Shown piece after piece: positions 10,337-14,575 of a stretch of 64,000 nt of DNA. Under the pieces are notes generated by a model that did no database searches, was not told the DNA's origin, and saw only the letters and a list, made by a program, of their open reading frames with translations. The translations under genes were made by a program, and so were the position numbers. Source of the stretch: a phage; the NCBI GenBank assembly GCA_011939005.1, contig GCA_011939005.1_4858.1; one strand, 5' to 3'. The first letter of the stretch is position 1; the number at the start of each line of letters is the position of its first letter.

Positions 10337-10588
10337 TTATTTCTCCATTGTTTTAAAGAGAACGTCTACGCTGTTACGGAGCATATTCAATTCTTCTTCT
10401 TTCTTACGCAGCAGCATTTCAGGAGCGTTCTTTGCAAACTCTTTCAATGCCATTTGGACGACATGCGAATCGGTTTCGTCCGGGAACAGGGCCTTTAATG
10501 CAACCCATTCTTCCGCCGTGAAAACATCGCCTTTGCGAACATTACGCTGTTGTGGTAGTCGAATTGTTTTACTGAGTCGGTCAGTCAT
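10337..10588 (-). CDS. hypothetical protein
   Basis: Track start 10600 is TTG; first ATG at 10588 overlaps upstream stop (ATGA) and has RBS ggtggag. Confidence 0.45.
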   Translation of the reverse strand: MTDRLSKTIRLPQQRNVRKGDVFTAEEWVALKALFPDETDSHVVQMALKEFAKNAPEMLLRKKEEELNMLRNSVDVLFKTMEK

Positions 10589-11121
10589 AGCTCCACCCAA
10601 ATCAGTTTAAAGGTATCACCTTCTAAGCCAGTCGGATGAATAATCATCGCTTCGGTATAGATAGGCTCTTCTTCTGCAATGCGGTGTTCAGCTGCTAAGC
10701 CTGAAAGGTGCATGTAGAGGTCTTCATCCATATCCCCGTTAAAAGATGAGGTCAGGATGAAAGGTGTGGATTCTGCGATTTGCAAAAGCGTTTCTTTGCT
10801 AATCTGCATCTCCATTGTCCGACGTCGTTCCATCCAACTGCCTTGTTCGTGGATATACGGGTCGGTATTAATGCGAACGACAGGTTCCGTAGACACACCC
10901 AGACCACGCGACATCATCTGGATAGCCAGAAGCGTCCACCATTCTTGTTCAGCTATCGGGAAACCGATAGCTTTCATCGTCCCGTCCGGTTGTGGAACGT
11001 GCAGTTGTCCACGATGTTCGTCTGGAAATTCGATGATCTTCTGACCATTGACAGGAATAAACGGCGGTTCGTCCGTAGCAACCACCACTTTAGGTTTGAA
11101 TGGAACGACGTTGTCAACCAT
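10585..11121 (-). CDS. hypothetical protein
   Basis: 178-aa ORF, ATG start, coupled to downstream gene. Confidence 0.55.
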   Translation of the reverse strand: MVDNVVPFKPKVVVATDEPPFIPVNGQKIIEFPDEHRGQLHVPQPDGTMKAIGFPIAEQEWWTLLAIQMMSRGLGVSTEPVVRINTDPYIHEQGSWMERRRTMEMQISKETLLQIAESTPFILTSSFNGDMDEDLYMHLSGLAAEHRIAEEEPIYTEAMIIHPTGLEGDTFKLIWVEL

Positions 11122-11133
11122 AAACGCTCCTAA

Positions 11134-12171
11134 TTAGATAGCGACAGGCGCAGATATTTTTTCATGGGACTGATACCCGACGATTTCGAAATCTTCGAAC
11201 TTATAATCGAAGATAGAATCCGGTTTACGCTTGATGACCAGTTTCGGTAAAGGTAAAGGTTCGCGCGTCAGCTGCAATTTAGCCTGTTCCAGATGGTTGG
11301 AGTACAGATGTACGTCACCACCACTCCAAACGAAATCGCCTGGAACCATGTTAACTTGCTGAGCTACCATGTGTACGAGTAATGCGTAAGACGCGATGTT
11401 GAACGGTGTTCCCAGGAAGAAGTCTTGGGAACGTGCATACAGCTGACATGAAAGAATGCGGCGAGGTATTTCAAGTGCGTCCATCTCAACGTGGAACACT
11501 GCGTCGTCTGCAACAGCTTCATTACTAAAGCGGGAATCGTTAAATTGATCTGGAAGGTTCTTTTCAAACCAATCAAGACGCTCGTCGATAGACAGCTCAC
11601 GAGTGTAGAACTGAAAGAACGCATGACACGGAGCTAACGCCATTTGATCCAACTCACCCACATTCCATGCGCTGACAATAATACGGCGACTGTCAGGATC
11701 GTTACGCAGTTGGTCAATCACCTTAGAGATTTGGTCGTGTAGTTTCAGAAGTACACGCGCATCGAACATTTGTGAACCGTCGTCCGCGTCGCCATAATCC
11801 ACGTATCCTGCATCTTGCAGTTTCTCGAGTAAAGCTGCATTTTTCTTAGGCACCAGTTTCACATCTTTCCAACGTCTCCACTGTTCCCCATACAGGGGGC
11901 CAAGGTTCCCATTTTCATCTTGCCACTCCCGCCAAATGGTAACGCCGTTATCTTCCAGATATTTGGTGTTGGTATCGCCACTAAGGAACCACAGCAGTTC
12001 GTGAATAATAGAACGCAGGTGGAGTTTTTTAGTCGTGACTAGTGGGAAACCTTTGCGCAAATCAAAACGCATTTGGCGACCAAAGACGGAGAGCGTCCCT
12101 GTTCCAGTACGGTCGCCTTTAACATGCCCTTCATCCAGAATATTCTGCATCGTTTCAAGGTATTGCTTCAT
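11134..12171 (-). CDS. thyA: thymidylate synthase (ThyA family) with two insertions
   Basis: Near-complete ThyA signature: [94 protein letters not shown]-terminus APVAI; 345 aa versus about 264 in E. coli. Confidence 0.95.
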
Positions 12172-13031
12172 TAGATACTATCCCTCTTTAAGCTTTCAAA
12201 TAAGTAAAGTAGATCATCATTCATCACCACATTCACACCGCCATCTGTGTAGGCTGCGGTTATTTCAGGTACACGTTCGAACAGGATACGATTCCAGCGC
12301 ACTGAGTCACGAACATATTTGTCCAGCAGTTCGTTTAACGTAGTTGCGAGTGCAGCATTGATTGTCGGCAACTCGTCGCGTTTAAACGGCCGGTGGCAAT
12401 AGGGCGCAAGGTGCGTAGCGACACAACTGTCCAGGACAGTCTGGAACATCAGACAGATGGCTGGCCCAGCCATCTGTCTAGAACCAGGCAATTTATCGCC
12501 AGTAAAATCATCAGACGCGGGAACAAACAACCCGATGCCGTTCATTTCACCTTTCGTGTTGATTAGCACACGATGTCCGTTGTATATTACACGGCCGAAT
12601 TCCAGGCCGCAGATACGCGCCAACATTCGGTATTGTCGCGCCAAACTATGCAGCTCGGTAACGTAGCTGTGGGGCTCGTGCTCATCTTGCAATATGAGTC
12701 CAACCACTTCGGTGGCAACAACAAAAAGGTTATGAAGACGGAACTCTTTGGTGTTTCCCGTGGTGCGGTCTTTTATAGCTGCATCCAGTGGAATAACGAA
12801 ATCTCCCACGTTCGTGTGCTTGCCGAAGTGCAACAGACCAACGAACGCCCAAAGAGAGCGACCCATGGCCGCCGCCACTTTCAAGTTGTCCATCTTCTGC
12901 ACACCTTCAGCGACGTCGCCTAATGTGCGATAGAACTTGGCTAGCTGCTGCTCGCGTGTCCCGTATTGGTAAATCTTCGCTTGCCGGTACCAATCATCAA
13001 CCGCCTGAGTCTGCTGAATAATACTAAGCAT
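12171..13031 (-). CDS. hypothetical protein, translationally coupled to thyA
   Basis: Stop overlaps thyA start; ATG at 13031 has RBS aggagg (track start 13097 would overlap upstream gene by 74 nt). Possible MazG-like helix pattern, weak. Confidence 0.55.
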
Positions 13032-13443
13032 ACTCTTCCTCCTGATACGCGTAGCAGATTGCAAAGTTAAGCTGGCCGGTTGCGCGAGAAACGACAACGG
13101 CGATAGTCTGGTCTTCTACACCCGACATCGGTGTGCCCTGGTTAACCATTTGACCTGCGGCTTTACTTACCGGACCCAGCAAACGCCAGCTGTACAGACG
13201 GCTACGTAACGCGGCGTTTTGTAAGAAAGCGGAGCCGCAATCATAGTCGATGTTAAACGCCGCAAACATTGGACCACAGTTTGCCATCGTGCCGTTTAAC
13301 GGCAGCTCGCTCGTTACCACAATCTTCACAGGCTTGTCTTTGAGACGTTGTGCTAACGCTTCCCAGTTAGCGTTATTAGTGCCAGCGACGATGGTGTTGT
13401 TCAGAAGTAAGCCAACGCCTTTTTCAAACGCGATATTGTTCAT
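13024..13443 (-). CDS. hypothetical protein
   Basis: 139-aa ORF, ATG start; no motif recognised. Confidence 0.5.
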   Translation of the reverse strand: MNNIAFEKGVGLLLNNTIVAGTNNANWEALAQRLKDKPVKIVVTSELPLNGTMANCGPMFAAFNIDYDCGSAFLQNAALRSRLYSWRLLGPVSKAAGQMVNQGTPMSGVEDQTIAVVVSRATGQLNFAICYAYQEEEYA

Positions 13444-13872: not shown

Positions 13873-13908
13873 AAAAAATGAAGATACCCTCTCCCGAAGG
13901 AGAGGGTA
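13873..13908 (-). terminator. rho-independent terminator (UUCG-loop hairpin on minus transcript)
   Basis: Stem taccctctcc / ggagagggta with loop cgaa on plus strand (13885-13908), A-run 13873-13878. Confidence 0.6.
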
Positions 13909-13912
13909 CGAC

Positions 13913-14575
13913 TTAGATGCGGGTTTCATTATCCCAGTAGTTCCGAATGACTTCCTGGGCTTCAGCATCCGACGGGTTGCCTGGAATAGCGTCTTCTACT
14001 GCAAACGGCAATACGTCCTTGATAGACGTCAGCTCAAATCGCTCAACTTCCAGTTCGACTTTTACCCACTCGCCGAATGTCGTGGAGTCGCGCAGTTCGT
14101 TGACAAGGTCTTCGAAACCTGCCTGCGATTCGATAACTGGGTGACCTGCCAGTTTAAAGAACAAGTCGATATCCCAATGCTTCGCACCTTGCTCTGCCAG
14201 TTCACCTGGTTCGAGTTTGATACGACGCACGAGATGTGCAAGATTGCCATCTTCGTAGAAGGTCAGACCCGAAGCAAACCCGATATCCGAGTTCTCTTCG
14301 ATACGACCATCAGATGCTTGTCGTTTTAACGTTAAGACTGCGGTTTTATCGGTGGACAACCGCACGCGACGTTTGCCGTTAACGACCGGCATAATGACAT
14401 CCAGGAACGTTTCACCTGTCTGACCAAACAGCCATTGCCAACCTTCTTCAGTGGGTTTAACCCACATGCAATACTCACGTTCCTTCTCCGTAGAGATGGA
14501 CTCACGCGCAACAGTAATGACTTCTTTTTCCTGCTGCTCGTCTAAGTTTTTGAGAATATCAAATAGTCCCATCAT
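13913..14575 (-). CDS. hypothetical protein
   Basis: 220-aa ORF, ATG start. Confidence 0.55.
   Translation of the reverse strand: MMGLFDILKNLDEQQEKEVITVARESISTEKEREYCMWVKPTEEGWQWLFGQTGETFLDVIMPVVNGKRRVRLSTDKTAVLTLKRQASDGRIEENSDIGFASGLTFYEDGNLAHLVRRIKLEPGELAEQGAKHWDIDLFFKLAGHPVIESQAGFEDLVNELRDSTTFGEWVKVELEVERFELTSIKDVLPFAVEDAIPGNPSDAEAQEVIRNYWDNETRI

What the first reader, a model, noticed from the sequence alone, without database searches (positions are those of the whole stretch)
11134..12171. Host-like thymidylate synthase carrying two in-frame insertions
The core is very close to enterobacterial ThyA (identical N- and C-terminal blocks as far as I can recall the E. coli sequence), yet it has a ~35-aa insertion after QWRRW and a ~46-aa insertion directly after the catalytic-Cys block PCHAFFQFY. 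The second insertion is next to the active site and could alter substrate specificity or partner binding; ThyA homologues in phages are sometimes repurposed as pyrimidine hydroxymethylases.
Basis: partly seen in the sequence, partly recalled or inferred. Interest (0 to 1): 0.45.

Follow-up and report, generated by a model that had tools for sequence, protein, structure and literature searches.

The report
Jumbo-phage thymidylate synthase with add-on modules
This is the thymidylate synthase gene of an SPN3US-like jumbo Salmonella phage: its catalytic core is ordinary, but it carries two folded extra modules, one also present in a solved bacterial enzyme and one found almost only in viral (mostly jumbo-phage) enzymes, whose role is still unknown.

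Summary
ORF 11134-12171 (minus strand, 345 aa) is a ThyA whose core is 77% identical to E. coli ThyA. It has two in-frame insertions, net +36 aa after QWRRW and net +45 aa after PCHAFFQFY. The window is an SPN3US-like chimallivirus.

The hydroxymethylase or altered-specificity reading is not supported:
- Every catalytic, dUMP-binding and folate-binding residue checked is kept, including Asn at the dUMP/dCMP discriminator position.
- The protein passes NCBI's thymidylate synthase equivalog cut-off.
- Hydroxymethylases are far more distant.
- A 10-residue beta strand separates insertion 2 from the catalytic Cys, so it is not in the active site.

Both insertions are confidently predicted folded modules (AlphaFold2 pLDDT 89-98).
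- Insertion 1 (strand-helix-strand-strand) is homologous to an insertion in a solved bacterial ThyA (Burkholderia thailandensis, PDB 3V8H), so it is not new.
- Insertion 2 (four short helices; motif ELSxxER...VPxRxLSC) is in no solved structure.
- A strict motif scan found it in 6 MAG contigs among 185,579 species genomes, but in about a quarter of sampled viral ThyA genes, enriched on contigs of 150 kb or more.
- Its centre is swapped as a cassette between near-identical phages.

Verdict: an annotated canonical enzyme with an apparently undescribed, virus-restricted accessory module. Moderate interest.

The parts
11134..12171 (-). thyA coding sequence, 345 aa (equivalent to SPN3US gp229, annotated thymidylate synthase)
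   Evidence: ORF listed. Pfam PF00303 4e-112. NCBIfam equivalog NF002499 434.5 bits against a cut-off of 405. The region is 98% identical in DNA to Salmonella phage JN03 and 93% to SPN3US, where the gene is annotated as thymidylate synthase.
11737..11868 (-). Insertion 1 (aa 102-145): strand-helix-strand-strand module, net +36 aa at E. coli site 102-109
11455..11604 (-). Insertion 2 (aa 190-239): four short helices on the tip of the beta hairpin that starts at the catalytic Cys, net +45 aa at E. coli site 154-158
   Evidence: Alignment. AlphaFold2 helices H195-205, H207-212, H217-221, H223-232 between strands E183-192 and E238-250, pLDDT 89-98. Conserved L193, E197, R198, L230, D231, P236, R238; variable centre 199-229. 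No solved TS contains it.
11450..11578 (-). Recombination cassette inside insertion 2 (about 130 nt)
   Evidence: The window and Escherichia phage EC001 thyA genes are nearly identical for the first 593 nt. They are unrelated over this block and nearly identical again from TGTCAGCTG onward. The EC001 version resembles the insertion 2 of Cronobacter phage CR5.
11626..11628 (-). Codon of the catalytic cysteine Cys182 (= E. coli Cys146)
   Evidence: Residue mapping. The position is 100% conserved in 208 insertion-2-bearing relatives.
12171..13097 (-). Upstream gene (308 aa), translationally coupled to thyA (stop TAA overlaps the ATG: TAATG); weak MazG-like signal
   Evidence: ORF and sequence. 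PHROG 10269 (unknown function) 2.6e-77; PHROG 7855 'mazG nucleotide pyrophosphohydrolase' 8.4e-6 over residues 14-139. No Pfam, NCBIfam or PDB match.

Best explanation
The gene encodes a catalytically canonical thymidylate synthase (dUMP + methylene-tetrahydrofolate to dTMP + dihydrofolate). It supplies dTMP for replication of a nucleus-forming jumbo phage (Seoulvirus, Chimalliviridae). The two insertions are folded accessory modules grafted onto surface loops far from the catalytic centre, and they do not change the chemistry. Insertion 1 is the same small alpha/beta module that a bacterial ThyA subfamily (Burkholderia type, PDB 3V8H) carries at the same loop. Insertion 2 is a four-helix module at the distal tip of the beta hairpin of the central sheet. 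That sheet forms the TS dimer interface (established knowledge). Its two ends (ELSxxER and VPxRxLSC) are conserved and probably anchor it to the core, while its outer centre is variable and is exchanged between phages by recombination. Inferred, not shown: insertion 2 acts as a structural or protein-protein interaction surface at the edge of the dimer. It could add homodimer contacts or dock a viral or host partner.
For: Identity as TS: (above curated cut-offs). R21, K48, E58, W80, W83, Y94, R126/R127, C146, H147, R166, S167, D169, N177, H207, Y209 and the C-terminal APVAI are all kept, and these positions are 95-100% conserved in 208 insertion-2 relatives. Hydroxymethylases are far more distant. 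SPN3US-like genomes also encode DHFR and thymidylate kinase (PMC6614189), as expected for a DHF-producing TS. Folded modules: AlphaFold2 with a 97-sequence alignment gives mean pLDDT 96.8 and pTM 0.93, with 89-98 in both insertions. The shallow-alignment model gives the same secondary structure. The predicted 201phi2-1 TS matches across the insertions (TMq 0.83 against 0.65 for E. coli TS). Distal position: strand 183-192 separates Cys182 from the insertion, and the only co-varying core positions are Ec192-195 (L194 to M in 81%, N at 193 in 70%). Selection: insertion 2 is kept in 105 of 149 50%-identity representatives, with R198 at 86% and P236 at 91%. It co-occurs with insertion 1 (odds ratio 7.7, p = 2e-7). 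Virus restriction. Cassette exchange.
Against: No activity, oligomer or partner was measured. No dimer model or coordinates were available, so the position relative to the dimer axis rests on strand geometry, covariation and textbook knowledge of TS. The variable, exchangeable centre of insertion 2 is equally compatible with weak constraint. TS-GFP in PhiPA3 infection is diffusely cytoplasmic (PMC9067925), and phiKZ TS knock-down has only a weak phenotype (PMC12571901). This gives no hint of a special localisation or an essential new role. One near-active-site position differs in this allele (E. coli Q165 is Ala246 here). Q is the majority in the family, and SPN3US itself has Q.
Confidence: 0.75

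Rival explanations
1. The insertions are functionless passengers. They are tolerated decorations at loops known to accept insertions, kept only because excising them precisely is unlikely.
For: TS has three insertion hot spots in this family (E. coli sites 83-94, 102-109, 154-158) with sizes from 0 to about 270 aa and no Pfam domain in the large ones. The centre of insertion 2 is poorly conserved and is swapped wholesale between near-identical genes.
Against: The ends of insertion 2 are conserved about as well as core positions (R198 86%, P236 91%) across relatives whose whole-protein identity to this protein falls to 43-60%. Both modules are predicted to fold with pLDDT 89-98. A core loop co-varies with insertion 2. 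The two insertions co-occur non-randomly. Insertion 2 is strongly biased to viruses.
Confidence: 0.15
2. Insertion 2 is an arms-race or specificity surface. It might keep the very host-like phage subunit from forming mixed dimers with host ThyA, or it might be a surface recognised (or evaded) by a host defence or a competing phage. That would explain the cassette turnover.
For: The core is 77% identical to host-type ThyA and groups next to E. coli ThyA in a rough tree. The insertion sits on the sheet that forms the dimer interface (plus established TS structure). The centre is replaced by a CR5-like cassette in EC001, whose gene is otherwise nearly identical apart from a second mosaic block at the 3' end. 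TS sites were reported under positive selection in SPFM phages (PMC6614189).
Against: Insertion 2 is also present in viral ThyAs that are not close to their hosts' enzymes. No TS-directed defence is known to me. The positively selected sites reported (89, 92) lie outside insertion 2. No experiment bears on heterodimers.
Confidence: 0.07
3. The enzyme is repurposed, for example as a dUMP or dCMP hydroxymethylase feeding a DNA hypermodification pathway.
For: TS homologues are repurposed in some phages (PMC7824862). The upstream, translationally coupled gene has a weak MazG-like signal, and such enzymes also occur in modification pathways.
Confidence: 0.03

Closest known systems
E. coli ThyA (264 aa; PDB 1AOB, 2TSC and many others)
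   Same: The core is 77% identical, with all catalytic and ligand-binding residues and the N- and C-termini conserved. The fold is the same.
   Different: E. coli ThyA lacks both insertions. DNA identity is only ~69-70%, so there has been no recent exchange with the host gene.
Burkholderia thailandensis ThyA, PDB 3V8H (NCBIfam NF010393 / PRK13821 type, about 323 aa)
Thymidylate synthases of phiKZ-like phages (phiKZ gp235; 201phi2-1 B3FJL1, 457 aa; phage 30-1, 488 aa) and Serratia phage PCH45 (390 aa)
   Same: They have a homologous insertion 2 (TRELTVDER...APKRAISCQ; EDLTVTER...IPSQGLS), and in the phiKZ type a homologous insertion 1. The best structural match in the viral library is the 201phi2-1 TS, TMq 0.83.
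   Different: They also carry a third insertion of 58-118 aa after IWxEW, and their insertion 2 is longer (55-70 aa). Their cores are less E. coli-like.
Phage T4 Td, L. casei TS and human TS insertions (from my own knowledge, not tested here)
   Same: These are precedents for TS enzymes with surface insertions. The L. casei 'small domain' insert and eukaryotic insert 1 lie at E. coli site 83-94. Eukaryotic insert 2 lies at the insertion 1 loop. The T4 Td inserts were proposed as docking surfaces for the dNTP-synthesising complex.
   Different: None of these, to my knowledge or in the PDB profile search, has an insertion at the beta-hairpin tip (E. coli 154-158).

Membership tests
Thymidylate synthase ThyA (PF00303; EC 2.1.1.45) | Sequence scores above curated family cut-offs | tested here: met
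   PF00303 374 bits against a cut-off of 24.3. NCBIfam equivalogs NF002499 434.5/405, NF002497 407/327, TIGR03284 355/108.
Thymidylate synthase ThyA (PF00303; EC 2.1.1.45) | Catalytic Cys and the four phosphate-binding Arg residues (E. coli C146, R21, R126, R127, R166) | tested here: met
   C182, R21, R162, R163 and R247 are present. These positions are 98-100% conserved in 208 insertion-2 relatives.
Thymidylate synthase ThyA (PF00303; EC 2.1.1.45) | Asn at E. coli position 177 (dUMP rather than dCMP specificity); folate and hydride-transfer residues E58, W80, W83, Y94, H147, D169, H207, Y209; closing C-terminal tail | tested here: met
   N258 and all listed residues are present, and the C-terminus is ...SAPVAI. 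One neighbouring position differs in this allele (Q165 is A246).
Thymidylate synthase ThyA (PF00303; EC 2.1.1.45) | TS fold | tested here: met
Thymidylate synthase ThyA (PF00303; EC 2.1.1.45) | Makes dTMP and dihydrofolate; obligate homodimer | not testable with these tools
   This needs an enzyme assay, complementation or a dimer structure.
dCMP / dUMP hydroxymethylases of the TS superfamily | Asp in place of Asn177 (dCMP enzymes); closer similarity to hydroxymethylase families than to TS | tested here: not met
dCMP / dUMP hydroxymethylases of the TS superfamily | Hydroxymethylated or hypermodified pyrimidine in virion DNA | not testable with these tools
   No nucleoside analysis of SPN3US-like DNA was found in the searchable literature.
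Burkholderia-type bacterial ThyA (NCBIfam NF010393 / PRK13821; PDB 3V8H) | Alpha/beta insertion between QWRxW and IDQ | tested here: met
Burkholderia-type bacterial ThyA (NCBIfam NF010393 / PRK13821; PDB 3V8H) | Whole-protein score above the family cut-off | tested here: not met
   216.1 bits against a cut-off of 576. Identity to 3V8H is 38%. The protein shares the module but is not a member.
Insertion-2-bearing viral ThyA (group defined in this work) | Insertion of 25-90 aa at E. coli 154-158 that starts x-E/P-L/M-T/S-x-x-E-R and ends V/I-P-x-R-x-L-S-C | tested here: met
   The window sequence is TRELSIDER...EIPRRILSC. The same signature is seen in 105 of 149 representatives and in 96 viral loci with a callable ThyA.
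Intein, or translated intron / mobile insertion | Intein splicing blocks or size; group I/II intron RNA structure; foreign base composition | tested here: not met
   The insertions are 44 and 50 aa with no Pfam domain other than TS. There is no Rfam match at E <= 1 in 10500-13200 apart from a chance miRNA hit. Insertion GC is 46.5-47.3% against 47.0% for the gene.

The most novel reading that the evidence does not exclude
Insertion 2 is a virus-specific functional domain of thymidylate synthase. It would be a hallmark of chimallivirus and jumbo-phage ThyA that forms a new surface at the dimer edge and binds a partner. Candidates are another enzyme of a viral dNTP-synthesising assembly, or a host factor or defence that drives its cassette-like turnover. 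One of the most conserved enzymes known would then have acquired a viral regulatory or interaction module with no cellular counterpart.
Probability: 0.25. Interest if true: 0.6.

Novelty: new variant of a known kind. Interest (0 to 1): 0.38.

Why it matters
Thymidylate synthase is among the most conserved and best-studied enzymes, and its dimer-interface sheet is regarded as nearly invariant. I found a 30-90 aa helical module at the tip of that sheet. It has a conserved signature, occurs in roughly a quarter of sampled viral ThyA genes, is essentially absent from 185,579 bacterial and archaeal species genomes, and is in no solved structure. This gives three things: a simple sequence marker for viral (largely jumbo-phage) thyA in metagenomes, a defined deletion target for asking how nucleus-forming phages organise cytoplasmic nucleotide supply, and a clean natural example of cassette exchange inside an essential enzyme. 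It also corrects the more exciting reading: nothing here points to modified DNA bases.

Tried and rejected
- **Hydroxymethylase or altered chemistry.** Rejected on residue conservation, family cut-offs and structural distance.
- **Intron, intein or foreign DNA.** Rejected.
- **Recent capture of the host gene.** Rejected: DNA identity to E. coli thyA is ~69-70% in all 5,426 genomes.
- **A second TS in the phage.** A paper calls SPN3US gp100 a thymidylate synthase, but the record shows gp100 is thymidylate kinase.
- **Insertion 2 in ordinary bacteria.**
  - The strict motif scan of species genomes gave 11 loci. Only 6 have a long or apparent insertion 2 (one runs off its contig), and all are MAG contigs. 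The two I examined have phage-family neighbours.
  - One Ectothiorhodospira protein (WP_238617030) has a divergent insertion at this site. Its context could not be retrieved.
- **Single-sequence PDB search with insertion 1.** It found nothing. A profile was needed to see 3V8H.
- **Known domains in the much larger insertions of relatives.** None in Pfam.
- **DHFR in the window.** None.
- **The upstream gene.** No Pfam, NCBIfam or PDB assignment, only a weak MazG PHROG hit.
- **Technical limits.** The AFDB fold library was unavailable. Model coordinates are not exposed, so contacts between the two insertions and across the dimer could not be measured. A dN/dS analysis by region was abandoned because too few comparable alleles had been fetched.
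- **The NJ tree.** It is star-like at depth and was built from a list ranked with an insertion-containing profile. I use it only for the E. coli / SPN3US-group sister relationship.

Full report
**What is there**

ORF 11134..12171 on the minus strand encodes a 345-aa protein. It matches Pfam Thymidylat_synt at 4e-112 and E. coli ThyA structures at about 1e-122. The match falls in three separate blocks: residues 1-102, 146-191 and 240-345 correspond to E. coli 1-102, 110-155 and 159-264.

Counting exactly:
- 44 residues (102-145) replace the 8-residue E. coli loop PTPDGRHI, net +36.
- 50 residues (190-239) replace the 5-residue turn VADGK, net +45.

The flanking blocks are not identical to E. 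coli. They are 75%, 86% and 75% identical, 77% over the core.

The gene is tightly packed in a minus-strand gene run. The stop codon of the upstream 308-aa ORF overlaps the thyA start (TAATG), and the next gene starts 12 nt after the thyA stop.

**Where the window comes from**

The region is 98% identical to Salmonella phage JN03 and 93-97% identical to SPN3US, EC001, SEGD1 and the SPFM phages. All are genomes of about 240 kb in which this gene is annotated as thymidylate synthase (SPN3US gp229). Seoulvirus belongs to Chimalliviridae, the nucleus-forming jumbo phages.

**Is it a thymidylate synthase or something repurposed?**

- Every residue I know to define TS chemistry is present: R21, K48, E58, W80, W83, Y94, R126/R127, C146, H147, R166, S167, D169, N177, H207, Y209 and the C-terminal tail APVAI (E. 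coli numbering).
- The protein exceeds the curated cut-offs of three NCBIfam thymidylate synthase equivalog models.
- No hydroxymethylase family in PHROGs matched.
- In 208 relatives that carry insertion 2, the catalytic positions are 95-100% conserved, including Asn at the dUMP/dCMP discriminator (99%).
- A published survey reports that SPN3US-like genomes also encode DHFR and thymidylate kinase (PMC6614189). That fits an enzyme that oxidises its folate. DHFR is not in this window.

I conclude with high confidence that the chemistry is canonical. One nearby residue differs in this allele: E. coli Q165 is Ala246 here. SPN3US has Q, and Q is the family majority.

**The insertions are real protein modules**

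Their base composition equals the rest of the gene, and no intron-like RNA family is found.

AlphaFold2 with a 15-sequence alignment already predicted regular structure in both. With a 97-sequence alignment the model reaches mean pLDDT 96.8 and pTM 0.93, with 89-98 throughout the insertions.
- Insertion 1 is strand 101-108, helix 112-120, strand 124-130, strand 137-145.
- Insertion 2 is four short helices (195-205, 207-212, 217-221, 223-232). They are carried on the tip of a long beta hairpin formed by strands 183-192 and 238-250.

Cys182 sits at the start of strand 183-192, so ten residues of extended strand (about 30 A) separate the catalytic residue from the insertion. 'Directly after the catalytic block' is true in sequence but not in space.

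Independent support comes from covariation. Apart from the hairpin-turn columns themselves, the only core positions that differ systematically between 208 insertion-2-bearing and 94 insertion-free ThyAs are E. coli 192-195 (L194 becomes M in 81%, position 193 becomes N in 70%). That loop starts the neighbouring strand, whose far end carries H207 and Y209. It is therefore at the same distal end of the sheet.

By established knowledge this sheet forms the TS dimer interface. That the two insertion 2 modules lie near the dimer edge is my inference. Coordinates and dimer models were not available.

**Insertion 1 is not new**

So a homologous module exists in an ordinary bacterial ThyA subfamily. 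The window protein is not a member of that subfamily (216 bits against a cut-off of 576).

**Insertion 2 is the unusual part**

*Conservation across the family.* In an HMM search of 1.84 billion representatives, 105 of the best 149 carry an insertion of at least 25 aa here with the same signature. The signature starts x-E/P-L/M-T/S-x-x-E-R and ends V/I-P-x-R-x-L-S-C. This list is ranked with a profile that contains the insertion, so the fraction is biased upward. Across 97 sequences, E197 (77%), R198 (86%), P236 (91%) and R238 (66%) are conserved, while residues 199-229 are not.

*Bacterial genomes against viral contigs.*
- A strict DNA motif for PCH..FQFY....[ST]..ER found 11 loci in one genome each of 185,579 bacterial and archaeal species.
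- Only 6 of those have a long or apparent insertion 2 (one runs off its contig), and all are on MAG contigs. The two I examined are surrounded by phage protein families.
- The same motif found 110 loci in the viral contig collection.
- In a sample of viral ThyA genes taken with the insertion-independent motif PCH..FQFY, 19 of 72 carry insertion 2.
- Those are enriched on contigs of at least 150 kb: 11 of 19 against 7 of 53, p = 3e-4.

*Isolated phages.* A tblastn with the insertion 2 peptide hits 58 records, all 197-322 kb jumbo phages: Seoulvirus, phiKZ-like, CR5, Erwinia phages Asesino, Caitlin, RisingSun and Joad, and Viktualia. Seoulvirus, Phikzvirus, Derbicusvirus and Risingsunvirus are Chimalliviridae genera. 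An unrelated insertion-2-only metagenomic ThyA again finds these phages first. The phiKZ-type (488 aa) and PCH45 (390 aa) enzymes carry a homologous insertion 2 plus a further large insertion after IWxEW. The predicted 201phi2-1 TS is the best structural match in the viral library.

*Exception.* One bacterial protein with a divergent insertion at this site (Ectothiorhodospira, WP_238617030) was seen, but its context could not be retrieved.

**Evolutionary pattern**

The core of the SPN3US group is closer to E. coli ThyA (77-83%) than to other insertion-2-bearing ThyAs (70% or less). E. coli ThyA is its sister in a rough tree. DNA identity to E. coli thyA is only ~69-70%, so there has been no recent transfer.

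Insertions 1 and 2 co-occur far more often than chance (63 of 208 against 5 of 94, odds ratio 7.7, p = 2e-7).

Most strikingly, the window and Escherichia phage EC001 genes are virtually identical for 593 nt. They are unrelated for about 130 nt covering the centre and end of insertion 2, and virtually identical again until a second short mosaic block close to the 3' end. The EC001 version resembles that of Cronobacter phage CR5, a different genus. The outer part of insertion 2 is therefore exchanged as a cassette by recombination, using the conserved ends as arms.

**How it most likely works**

Shown: it is a complete TS with two folded add-on modules that lie away from the catalytic residues. 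Insertion 1 has a bacterial, structurally solved counterpart. Insertion 2 is conserved at its ends, variable in its centre, virus-restricted and recombinationally mobile.

Inferred: the conserved ends anchor a helical module on the distal edge of the dimer-interface sheet, and the exposed centre forms a surface for protein contacts. These could be extra homodimer contacts or docking of a viral or host partner. I put about 0.75 on 'canonical TS with accessory, non-catalytic modules'. Within that, I put less than half on a specific interaction role.

The literature gives little help. TS-GFP is excluded from the phage nucleus and is diffusely cytoplasmic (PMC9067925). Knock-down of phiKZ gp235 has weak effects (PMC12571901). 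I found no paper describing these insertions.

Rival readings are a functionless passenger (0.15), an arms-race or dimer-specificity surface (0.07) and repurposed chemistry (0.03).

**Novelty and verdict**

The gene is already annotated as thymidylate synthase, and insertion 1 is already present in a solved structure. The recognition of insertion 2 as a conserved, virus-restricted, cassette-exchanging module of ThyA appears undescribed. I file it as a new variant of a known kind. Interest is moderate (0.38), because the function is unknown and the exciting reading (modified bases) is not supported.

Noticed in passing
L002 (LR535912.1, Salmonella phage SPFM14) 2162-3295; also SPFM1, 5-10, 12, 15, 20: The deposited thyA 'CDS' translates to the ThyA sequence cut into 20-aa (60-nt) blocks in reverse order. 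These ENA records appear to have been reverse-ordered line by line. This is a database artefact that breaks every gene in the affected stretch.
   Followed up: partly
window 12171-13097 (-): The 308-aa gene upstream of thyA is translationally coupled to it (TAATG overlap). Its only functional hint is a weak MazG-like nucleotide pyrophosphohydrolase match in PHROGs (8.4e-6, residues 14-139). A pyrophosphohydrolase gene also lies near an insertion-2 thyA in a Saccharibacteria-binned phage contig, L011. It may supply dUMP.
   Followed up: partly
L228 (NZ_CP134650.1, Enterobacter ludwigii 'plasmid unnamed1', 222,441 bp circular); L226/L227 (~225 kb metagenome contigs): A record deposited as a non-mobilizable plasmid is syntenic with the ~225 kb metagenome contigs L226/L227 around thyA. 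The same thyA cluster appears on 220-226 kb contigs in many Salmonella and Shigella assemblies. This suggests jumbo phages carried by isolates and filed as plasmids or bacterial proteins.
   Followed up: partly
window 11134-11190 (3' end of thyA) compared with L225 (EC001): There is a second small mosaic block at the 3' end of thyA. EC001 reads IQDYVSHDPIK where the window reads [11 protein letters not shown], matching the allele of other relatives (P0029/P0031). This is further evidence of patchwork recombination within the gene.
   Followed up: no
relatives P0127, P0131, P0156, P0162, P0192, P0222 (site 1) and P0123, P0206, P0237, L004 (site A): Many viral ThyA homologues carry much larger insertions (118-270 aa) at the insertion 1 loop or after IWxEW, with no Pfam domain other than TS. 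Some lack insertion 2. Their nature is unknown.
   Followed up: partly
window 13884-13909 (-): A strong terminator-like hairpin (11-bp stem, 6 GC pairs, T-run) lies between the gene ending at 13913 and the run of genes that includes thyA. It may mark a transcription unit boundary.
   Followed up: no
L005 (SPN3US 93524-94147, gp100): A paper on SPN3US head assembly calls gp100 a thymidylate synthase, but the GenBank record annotates gp100 as thymidylate kinase. The phage has one ThyA, gp229.
   Followed up: yes
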